A stretch of DNA of 64,000 nucleotides. Source: Escherichia coli (GTDB lineage Bacteria > Pseudomonadota > Gammaproteobacteria > Enterobacterales > Enterobacteriaceae). This document shows, piece after piece, positions 50,655 through 50,968 of the stretch (its first letter is position 1; each line of letters starts with the position of its first letter). The notes below the pieces were generated by a model, which searched no databases, was not told where the DNA came from, and saw only the letters and a program-made list of their open reading frames with translations. Position numbers and translations under genes: made by a program. The DNA is taken from assembly GCF_044324785.1 (NCBI RefSeq), contig NZ_CP172127.1; one strand, 5' to 3'.

Positions 50655-50968
50655 GAGACGTGGTGGATTGAATTTGATCCTGCTGTTGACAGTGAAATCC
50701 GCAAGACATGTCCGGCAGTGATCGTGAGCAATGACGCAGCAAACAGGAACCTCGCTCGAGTAGTCGTCGTTCCTCTGACCAGTAACACAGAGCGAGTGTA
50801 TCCAAGTGAGGCTGTTGTGACCGTAGGTGTCAGAGCAGCAAAGCGATTGTAGAGCAGATTATGGCGGCGGATAAGTCCTGTCTCAAAACACATATTGGCT
50901 CGTTGTCCAAAGCAGATATGTTGTCTGTTGAGGACGCAATCAAGATCCATCTTGGTTTACTGCGGTAA
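50655..50968 (+). pseudogene. PemK/MazF-family toxin, frame-disrupted and lacking an obvious start
   Basis: WIEFDPAVDSEIRKTCPAVIVSNDAANRNLARVVVVPLTSN...then stop; C-terminal QIMAADKSCLKTHIGSLSKADMLSVEDAIKIHLGLLR in another frame. Confidence 0.4.

What the first reader, a model, noticed from the sequence alone, without database searches (positions are those of the whole stretch)
50655..50968. Decayed PemK/MazF-like toxin gene without start or antitoxin
The N-terminal two-thirds (WIEFDPAVDSEIRKTCPAVIVSNDAANRNLARVVVVPLTSN) and the C-terminal third are in different frames, and no upstream antitoxin ORF is evident. It appears to be a remnant of a type II addiction module.
Basis: partly seen in the sequence, partly recalled or inferred. 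Interest (0 to 1): 0.3.

Follow-up and report, generated by a model that had tools for sequence, protein, structure and literature searches.

The report
Dead PemK/MazF toxin gene remnant
This is the broken leftover of a plasmid-type toxin gene (PemK/MazF RNA-cutting toxin), stranded without its antidote gene in a mosaic E. coli pathogenicity island; it is an ordinary pseudogene.

Summary
Window 50652-50968 (+) is a PemK/MazF-family toxin gene with three independent lesions. (1) Its 5' end is cut off: from about 50657 leftwards the DNA is the upstream region of an orphan ugpB copy. That junction removed the start codon, ribosome-binding site, promoter and the whole upstream antitoxin gene. (2) One G is missing in codon 63 (50829/50830), which puts the last 45 codons in another frame. 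(3) The codon for the catalytic arginine (E. coli MazF Arg29) now reads Cys (TGT, 50709-50711). The repaired translation matches Pfam PemK_toxin over its full length (E 1.4e-24). It belongs to a tightly conserved 108-aa family with more than 3000 members, none more than 81% identical. It differs at 9 of 83 highly conserved positions, against a median of 1 in intact members. No antitoxin trace exists anywhere in the window. The same decayed allele sits in 194 of 5426 complete E. coli genomes, so it is not a sequencing error, and some strains carry a further IS insertion in it. RefSeq already labels the fragment 'PemK/MazF family toxin'. It is ordinary, of low interest and already known.

The parts
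50497..50657 (-). Upstream (promoter) region of the orphan ugpB copy. It occupies the place where the antitoxin gene and the toxin's 5' end should be.
   Evidence: It is collinear with the native E. coli ugpB upstream region up to 'GGTGAG', after which the two sequences diverge completely. blastn puts the whole ugpB-like segment at 49125-50657, 93.1% identical to a native ugpB locus.
50652..50657 (+). Junction microhomology GGTGAG. It is shared by the ugpB upstream DNA and codons 4-5 (Gly-Glu) of the toxin family, and is the probable crossover point of the illegitimate recombination.
   Evidence: Native ugpB upstream reads ...ACGGGTGAG|GGAAAA. Intact toxins read ATG CGG CGC GGT GAA GCA TGG TGG. 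The window reads ...ACAGGTGAG|ACGTGGTGG.
50658..50829 (+). Toxin remnant, N-terminal part (codons 6 to about 63 of 108), in the frame of 50655.
   Evidence: Pfam PF02452 E 3.9e-13. About 78% nt identity to the intact plasmid toxins. tblastn finds aa 4-69.
50709..50711 (+). TGT (Cys) codon at the position of the catalytic arginine (family Arg23; E. coli MazF Arg29).
   Evidence: This column is Arg in at least 90% of family members. It aligns with R29-P30 of E. coli MazF and with the Arg of 'nnqRPAVVVSND' in M. tuberculosis MazF9. The Arg is essential for cleavage according to PMC10893535.
50829..50830 (+). Site of the 1-nt (G) deletion in codon 63 that causes the frameshift (GGT GGT CAG became GGT G-T CAG).
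   Evidence: The DNA alignment with two intact homologues shows a single-column gap here. The family consensus VTVGGQSSKAM is recovered only when one base is restored.
50830..50968 (+). Toxin remnant, C-terminal part (codons 64-108 plus the original TAA stop), now out of frame with the N-terminal part.
   Evidence: Translation in the frame of 50657. Pfam profile positions 73-108, E 4.4e-4. tblastn finds aa 64-108.
50850..50852 (+). Premature TAG stop reached in the shifted N-terminal frame.

Best explanation
Window 50652-50968 is a non-functional pseudogene of a PemK/MazF-family type II toxin, a sequence-specific endoribonuclease. Intact relatives lie on plasmids directly behind, and overlapping, a roughly 76-aa antitoxin gene. 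Shown: an illegitimate recombination event, probably at the short shared motif GGTGAG, fused toxin codon 4-6 to the upstream region of a stray ugpB fragment. That one junction removed the antitoxin gene, the operon promoter, the ribosome-binding site and the toxin start codon. The remaining reading frame carries a one-G deletion in codon 63 and a Cys in place of the catalytic Arg. It also has about nine times the usual number of changes at highly conserved positions. Inferred: because the junction removed the antitoxin and the toxin's start together, or the toxin was already dead, the cell survived losing the antidote. Since then the fragment has drifted neutrally as passenger DNA in a mosaic, IS-riddled ExPEC/APEC pathogenicity island. 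It does nothing today. The small ORFs that RefSeq calls on it (51 or 61 aa with ATC or ATT starts, plus 35 aa) are annotation by-products.
For: - Family assignment: the repaired translation matches Pfam PemK_toxin over its full length, E 1.4e-24. The closest solved structure is M. tuberculosis MazF9, E 1.3e-17.
- Intact homologues on E. coli plasmids pSTEC640_4 and C5 plasmid B have a 231-bp antitoxin gene that overlaps the toxin start by 14 nt.
- The window has a single-column gap at 50829/50830 relative to these homologues.
- The native ugpB upstream region is collinear with the window up to 50657 and unrelated beyond it.
- No in-frame start codon lies upstream of GTG 50718.
- No antitoxin similarity exists anywhere in the 64 kb.
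- 9 of 83 columns conserved at 90% or more are changed, against a median of 1 and a maximum of 6 in 40 intact members.
- One of those changes is the Arg equivalent to MazF R29, now Cys. This Arg is essential for cleavage (PMC10893535).
- The identical broken allele is in 194 of 5426 complete E. coli genomes. The four alleles at 99.7% identity that I fetched differ only by substitutions.
- Strain AH25 has an IS3-family element inserted at 50920, which is further decay.
- No promoter-like site lies upstream on the + strand (the count for the region is not above the shuffled expectation), and there is no Rfam match.
Against: - All 47 columns that are invariant in the family alignment are still intact in the remnant, so the decay is modest.
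- The allele is almost free of polymorphism across 194 genomes. Recent spread of the island explains both points equally well.
- No parental allele closer than 81% aa / about 78% nt identity was found. Which of the substitutions arose after inactivation therefore cannot be determined, and the exact crossover point within GGTGAG is inferred.
- One full-length family member (P0002) also has Cys at the catalytic Arg position, so that change alone is not proof of death.
- No expression data were available.
Confidence: 0.93

Rival explanations
1. The frameshift is a sequencing or assembly error, and the gene is really an intact, orphan toxin.
For: Single-base indels next to short G runs (GGTGGT) are a common error type. 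RefSeq annotates the fragment as a CDS and not as a pseudogene.
Against: The same sequence is found in 194 independently sequenced complete genomes, 193 of them at 99% identity or more. The four 99.7% alleles that I fetched differ only by substitutions at 50464, 50832, 50967 and 51222, never by an indel. Even with the frame repaired there is no start codon, because the 5' end is replaced by ugpB upstream DNA, and the catalytic Arg is Cys.
Confidence: 0.01
2. The full-length toxin is still made by programmed ribosomal frameshifting or from a non-canonical start (ATT or ATC, as PGAP assumes), so this is a live orphan toxin or an attenuated one.
For: PGAP-aa and 61-aa products from ATC 50697 and ATT 50667. 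The remnant keeps every invariant family residue.
Against: There is no slippery X XXY YYZ heptamer at 50823-50835 (sequence read). No promoter-like site lies upstream on the + strand, and the upstream DNA is the divergent ugpB promoter region. The first five or so residues of strand beta-1 are lost and the catalytic Arg is lost. A live MazF without an antitoxin would be expected to be lethal (established knowledge of type II TA systems).
Confidence: 0.02
3. The fragment has been co-opted for another role. It might be an upstream element or insulator of the Pho-regulated orphan ugpB promoter, or the source of a small protein or antisense RNA. That role would explain why it is conserved in identical form in about 3.6% of E. 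coli genomes.
For: The junction lies only about 20 nt beyond the outermost Pho-box-like repeat of the ugpB promoter (sequence; Pho-box consensus from established knowledge). A sigma-70-like site scoring 10 of 12 lies on the minus strand at 50886-50858. The allele is almost invariant across genomes.
Against: The promoter-like count is not above the shuffled expectation (4 found, 2.7 +/- 1.4 expected). There is no Rfam family match. Some strains tolerate an IS insertion that removes the 3' 48 bp and changes the downstream context. Near-identity is expected for a recently spread island, and the flanking unannotated spacer is equally invariant.
Confidence: 0.04

Closest known systems
The 108-aa plasmid-borne PemK/MazF-family toxins of Proteobacteria with an upstream ~76-aa 'addiction module antitoxin' (e.g. 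UIV71484.1/UIV71483.1 on E. coli pSTEC640_4; WP_061358720.1 on E. coli C5 plasmid B; Xylella, Azotobacter and Sulfuricystis plasmids)
   Same: It has the same length and architecture once repaired, with 76-81% aa and about 78% nt identity. All 47 invariant columns are shared, and the stop codon is at the same position.
   Different: The first 3-5 codons, the start codon and the whole antitoxin gene are missing. Codon 63 has a 1-nt deletion. Nine highly conserved positions are changed, including the catalytic Arg to Cys. The location is chromosomal, inside a pathogenicity island next to a ugpB fragment.
Mycobacterium tuberculosis MazF9 (Rv2801c; PDB 5hjz, 6kyt), the closest relative with a solved structure
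   Different: It is only distantly related, MazF9 has two loop insertions, and the remnant has Cys where MazF9 has the Arg of the RPAV motif.
E. coli chromosomal MazF (ChpAK) and plasmid R100/R1 PemK/Kid
   Same: They share the Pfam family PF02452 and the same fold-level alignment: MazF at 25% identity with BLASTP E 4e-10, and Kid at E 7.9e-5.
   Different: It is not an orthologue: the NCBIfam MazF equivalog scores 38 bits against a cut-off of 120. The remnant is non-functional and has no MazE/PemI partner.

Membership tests
PemK/MazF toxin family (Pfam PF02452) | Significant full-length sequence match to the family profile | tested here: met
   The repaired translation scores 86.8 bits (cut-off 23.1), E 1.4e-24, over profile positions 1-108 of 109. 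The N-terminal piece alone scores 50 bits.
PemK/MazF toxin family (Pfam PF02452) | Catalytic Arg (E. coli MazF R29 / B. subtilis MazF R25) and Thr/Ser (T52 / T48) present | tested here: not met
   The Arg position is Cys (TGT 50709-50711). The alignments to MazF9 and E. coli MazF place it at the RP motif. The Thr of 'PLTSN' is retained. The Arg is essential according to PMC10893535.
PemK/MazF toxin family (Pfam PF02452) | Single uninterrupted ORF of about 105-120 codons with a start codon | tested here: not met
   The ORF is split over two frames by a 1-nt deletion. There is no in-frame ATG, GTG or TTG before 50718, and the 5' end is replaced by ugpB upstream DNA.
Type II toxin-antitoxin (addiction) module | Adjacent, co-transcribed antitoxin gene (upstream and overlapping in this family) | tested here: not met
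   Intact homologues have a 231-bp antitoxin gene that overlaps the toxin start by 14 nt. tblastn of that antitoxin against all 64 kb gives only E > 1. The upstream DNA is ugpB promoter region.
Type II toxin-antitoxin (addiction) module | Toxin inhibits growth and antitoxin neutralises it | not testable with these tools
   This needs expression experiments. Loss of function is predicted from the three lesions.
E. coli MazF equivalog (NCBIfam NF007386) | Score above the curated equivalog cut-off | tested here: not met
   38.1 bits against a cut-off of 120. It is a different subfamily of PemK/MazF, not chromosomal mazF.

The most novel reading that the evidence does not exclude
The remnant is not pure junk. 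It may be kept in invariant form next to the Pho-box promoter of the orphan ugpB copy because it supplies an upstream promoter or insulator element. Alternatively it may encode a small product, such as a 35-61-aa peptide or an antisense transcript from the minus-strand promoter-like site at 50886-50858.
Probability: 0.03. Interest if true: 0.3.

Novelty: already known. Interest (0 to 1): 0.07.

Why it matters
It matters very little biologically. Degraded toxin-antitoxin modules are a routine by-product of the plasmid, phage and IS traffic that builds pathogenicity islands. It has two modest uses. First, the ugpB-upstream|pemK junction (GGTGAG at 50652-50657) is a clean molecular marker for tracing this island segment among ExPEC/APEC lineages; it is present in about 3.6% of complete E. 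coli genomes. Second, it is an annotation warning. RefSeq lists the fragment as two real CDSs: a 51-aa or 61-aa 'PemK/MazF family toxin' that starts at ATC or ATT, plus a 35-aa hypothetical protein. It does not flag a pseudogene, which could inflate TA-system counts in surveys.

Tried and rejected
- Closer intact allele. It found more than 3000 family members, but none above 81% identity. E. coli complete genomes and plasmids gave only homologues at about 78% nt identity. The parental allele and the order of mutations therefore could not be reconstructed.
- Antitoxin remnants. tblastn with word size 2 and E up to 10 over the whole window found nothing. The weak apparent similarity of 50640-50657 to the toxin's first codons in the MAFFT alignment was rejected as toxin-derived, because that stretch matches the native ugpB upstream region much better.
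- Function for the surrounding DNA. The promoter/terminator scan was not above chance. Rfam at E up to 1 gave no match. Pfam on the ORFs of the 540-bp spacer gave nothing.
- Literature. The tkt1-island paper (PMC3349570) concerns a different island, between metE and ysgA, and mentions neither ugpB nor PemK. The IMT5155 genome paper describes the 94-kb PAI I5155 (aatA, ireA, fec, pgt) but not this remnant.
- Source strain. I first assumed the window was IMT5155 itself. That is wrong: only 42590-55896 is collinear, at 99.955%.

Full report
**Observation**

The frame that begins at 50655 reads ETWWIEFDPAVDSEIRKTCPAVIVSNDAANRNLARVVVVPLTSNTERVYPSEAVVTVGVRAAKRL and stops at TAG 50850-50852. The frame that begins at 50657 reads ...KAIVEQIMAADKSCLKTHIGSLSKADMLSVEDAIKIHLGLLR and stops at TAA 50966-50968.

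Pfam PemK_toxin (PF02452) matches as follows:
- first piece: E 3.9e-13, profile positions 6-59;
- second piece: E 4.4e-4, profile positions 73-108;
- the two pieces joined: E 1.4e-24, positions 1-108 of 109.

**Where the window comes from**

The 901 bp around the finding are 100% identical to many complete E. coli chromosomes from poultry, humans and other sources. The window is not APEC IMT5155 itself. However, 42590-55896 is collinear with that genome at 99.955%, so its RefSeq annotation can be transferred. The order in window coordinates is:

| Window coordinates | Strand | Feature |
|---|---|---|
| 48044-49045 | - | IS110-family transposase pseudogene |
| 49180-50496 | - | ugpB |
| 50697-50852 | + | 'PemK/MazF family toxin', 51 aa |
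| 50861-50968 | + | 'hypothetical protein', 35 aa |
| 51630-52673 | + | IS3-type transposase pseudogene |
| 52840-54810 | + | TonB-dependent receptor |
| 54829-55620 | + | DUF4198 protein |

In IMT5155 this segment lies in the roughly 94-kb island PAI I5155, which carries aatA, ireA, fecIRABCDE and pgtABCP (PMC4232414).

**The intact state**

The nearest full genes in the annotated collections are on E. coli plasmids pSTEC640_4 and C5 plasmid B, at about 78% nt identity. Others lie on plasmids of Xylella, Azotobacter, Sulfuricystis and Hydrogenophilus. In the two E. coli plasmids a 231-bp 'addiction module antitoxin' gene sits immediately upstream and overlaps the 327-bp toxin gene by 14 nt.

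Nearly all of those listed are exactly 108 aa long, and none is more than 81% identical. The family is very tightly conserved, with a mean column identity of 88% across 41 sequences.

**Lesion 1: 5' truncation and loss of the antitoxin**

I aligned the window with a native E. coli ugpB locus. The ugpB gene and 161 bp of its upstream region are collinear up to ...ACAGGTGAG at 50657. Beyond that point the two sequences are unrelated. blastn puts the ugpB-like block at 49125-50657, at 93.1% identity. Homology to the toxin family begins at 50652 (GGT GAG = Gly4-Glu5).

The hexamer GGTGAG is thus compatible with both parents. The native ugpB upstream reads GGTGAG, and the plasmid toxins read GGT GAA. 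It is the likely crossover point of an illegitimate recombination; this step is inference.

Everything that normally lies to the left of codon 4 is absent: the start codon, the ribosome-binding site, the promoter and the whole antitoxin gene. In frame, the sequence runs back only to a TGA at 50631-50633, with no ATG, GTG or TTG before GTG 50718. tblastn with the pSTEC640_4 antitoxin finds nothing in the entire 64 kb; every hit has E > 1.

**Lesion 2: frameshift**

Relative to both plasmid genes there is one missing base at 50829/50830. The family consensus here is VTVGGQSSKAM. The window reads GTA GGT G-T CAG AGC AGC AAA GCG, so one G of GGT GGT (codon 63) has been lost. The reading frame then runs into TAG 50850-50852, and the last 45 codons continue in the other frame to the original stop.

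**Lesion 3: substitutions, including the active site**

I used 83 columns that are at least 90% conserved among 40 intact members. The repaired remnant departs at 9 of them: V6T, V9I, G16D, R23C, G55S, M69I, D71E, R80C and P107L. Intact members depart at a median of 1 and a maximum of 6.

R23C (TGT, 50709-50711) falls on the Arg of the conserved R-P-A-V motif. This position aligns with Arg29-Pro30 of E. coli MazF and with the equivalent Arg of M. tuberculosis MazF9, the closest solved structure at E 1.3e-17. This Arg (Arg25 in B. subtilis MazF) and a Thr are the residues reported as essential for RNA cleavage and conserved across MazF homologues; an R29A mutant of MazF-sth lost its activity (PMC10893535).

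There are two caveats. One full-length family member (P0002) also carries Cys here. All 47 invariant columns are still intact, so the decay is moderate.

**Not an artefact**

The decayed allele occurs in 194 of 5426 complete E. coli genomes, 193 of them at 99% identity or more, and always on the chromosome. The only other match is the distant intact plasmid gene. The four alleles at 99.7% identity that I fetched differ by substitutions only, at 50464, 50832, 50967 and 51222. In strain AH25 an IS3-family element has inserted at 50920, and three other listed strains show the same cut-off point. This removes the last 48 bp and fits continuing neutral erosion.

**No sign of a secondary function**

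Promoter-like sites in 50400-51700 number 4, against 2.7 +/- 1.4 expected, and none lies upstream of the remnant on the + strand. No Rfam family matches at E up to 1. The site of the frame change has no slippery heptamer (sequence). PGAP's two alternative 'toxin' CDSs start at ATC 50697 (51 aa, WP_232380132.1) or ATT 50667 (61 aa, WP_089581225.1) in different genomes that are identical across both start sites. This indicates homology-driven gene calling, not evidence of a real start.

**Mechanism and history (inferred)**

A plasmid-type pemIK-like module was once part of the DNA that assembled into this island. A single rearrangement joined the toxin at codon 4-6 to a stray ugpB fragment. That deleted the antitoxin and the toxin's translation start at once, which is a survivable way to lose an antidote. 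Alternatively, the toxin was already dead through R23C or the frameshift. The order of events cannot be resolved, because no close intact allele exists in the databases searched. The fragment now drifts as passenger DNA.

**Comparison with what is known**

It works like nothing today, because it is dead. By descent it belongs to the PemK/MazF superfamily, specifically the 108-aa proteobacterial plasmid subfamily. It is not the E. coli mazF equivalog: NCBIfam scores it at 38 bits against a cut-off of 120. As a functional toxin or TA module it fails three tested defining features: an intact ORF with a start codon, the catalytic Arg, and an adjacent antitoxin.

**Verdict**

This is an ordinary, already-annotated pseudogene of low interest. 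Its only uses are as a lineage marker (the ugpB|pemK junction) and as an example of a pseudogene that RefSeq annotates as two CDSs.

Noticed in passing
window 49125-50657 (ugpB ORF 49180-50496, minus strand): This is an orphan, intact 438-aa ugpB copy inside the island. It is 93.1% identical in DNA to a native E. coli ugpB locus. It is cut off 55 bp past its stop codon, with an IS110-family pseudogene where ugpA/E/C/Q would be. It retains 161 bp of upstream region with Pho-box-like 7-bp repeats at 11-bp spacing (reverse complement of about 50575-50636: CTGTCAT-cttt-CTAACAC-ttta-CTGTCTA-acac-ATGTAAT...). It could be a phosphate-starvation-induced solo binding protein. The donor species is unknown.
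   Followed up: partly
window 50697-50852, 50667-50852 and 50861-50968: RefSeq/PGAP annotates the remnant as real CDSs and not as a pseudogene. They are WP_232380132.1 (51 aa, ATC start) or WP_089581225.1 (61 aa, ATT start), depending on the genome, plus the 35-aa hypothetical WP_001313273.1. This is probably an annotation artefact that would inflate toxin-antitoxin counts.
   Followed up: yes
window 50920/50921; locus L011 (E. coli AH25) 2791/2792: In AH25 an IS3-family element (end sequence TGAACCGCCCCGGGTTTCCTGGAGAG...) is inserted in the C-terminal part of the remnant, and different DNA follows downstream (a BRO-N domain gene). Three other listed genomes match only as far as the same point.
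   Followed up: partly
window 50969-51510: This is a 540-bp unannotated spacer between the remnant and the IS3-type pseudogene. Its GC content is 36.9% (window average 47.3%). It has no Pfam hit on its ORFs, no Rfam hit and no plasmid match. It travels with the remnant in about 190 E. coli genomes. Its origin is unknown.
   Followed up: partly
protein P0002 (Logan assembly, 108 aa): This full-length member of the same toxin family carries Cys at the catalytic Arg position (RKTCPAV), the same substitution as the remnant. It could be a naturally attenuated toxin, or the family may tolerate this change.
   Followed up: no
window 55889-55896 versus L001 14393-17093: APEC IMT5155 has an ISCro1 (IS66-family) element of about 2.7 kb here that the window lacks. 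To the left of 42590 the window and IMT5155 are only patchily related (84-98% blocks, rearranged). This shows how mosaic the island is.
   Followed up: partly
window 52840-55620: A TonB-dependent receptor (1971 bp) and a DUF4198 protein gene lie downstream of the IS3-type pseudogene. They form a possible metal-uptake pair inside the island. This rests on annotation transferred from IMT5155 only.
   Followed up: no
window about 14054-21004 (by 90-93% similarity to L004 10322-17329): This is a CP4-57-like island module. In IMT5155 it includes an apparently intact CbtA/CbeA type IV toxin-antitoxin pair, an antirestriction protein, and DUF932, DUF905 and DUF987 genes. I did not check whether these are intact in the window itself.
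   Followed up: no
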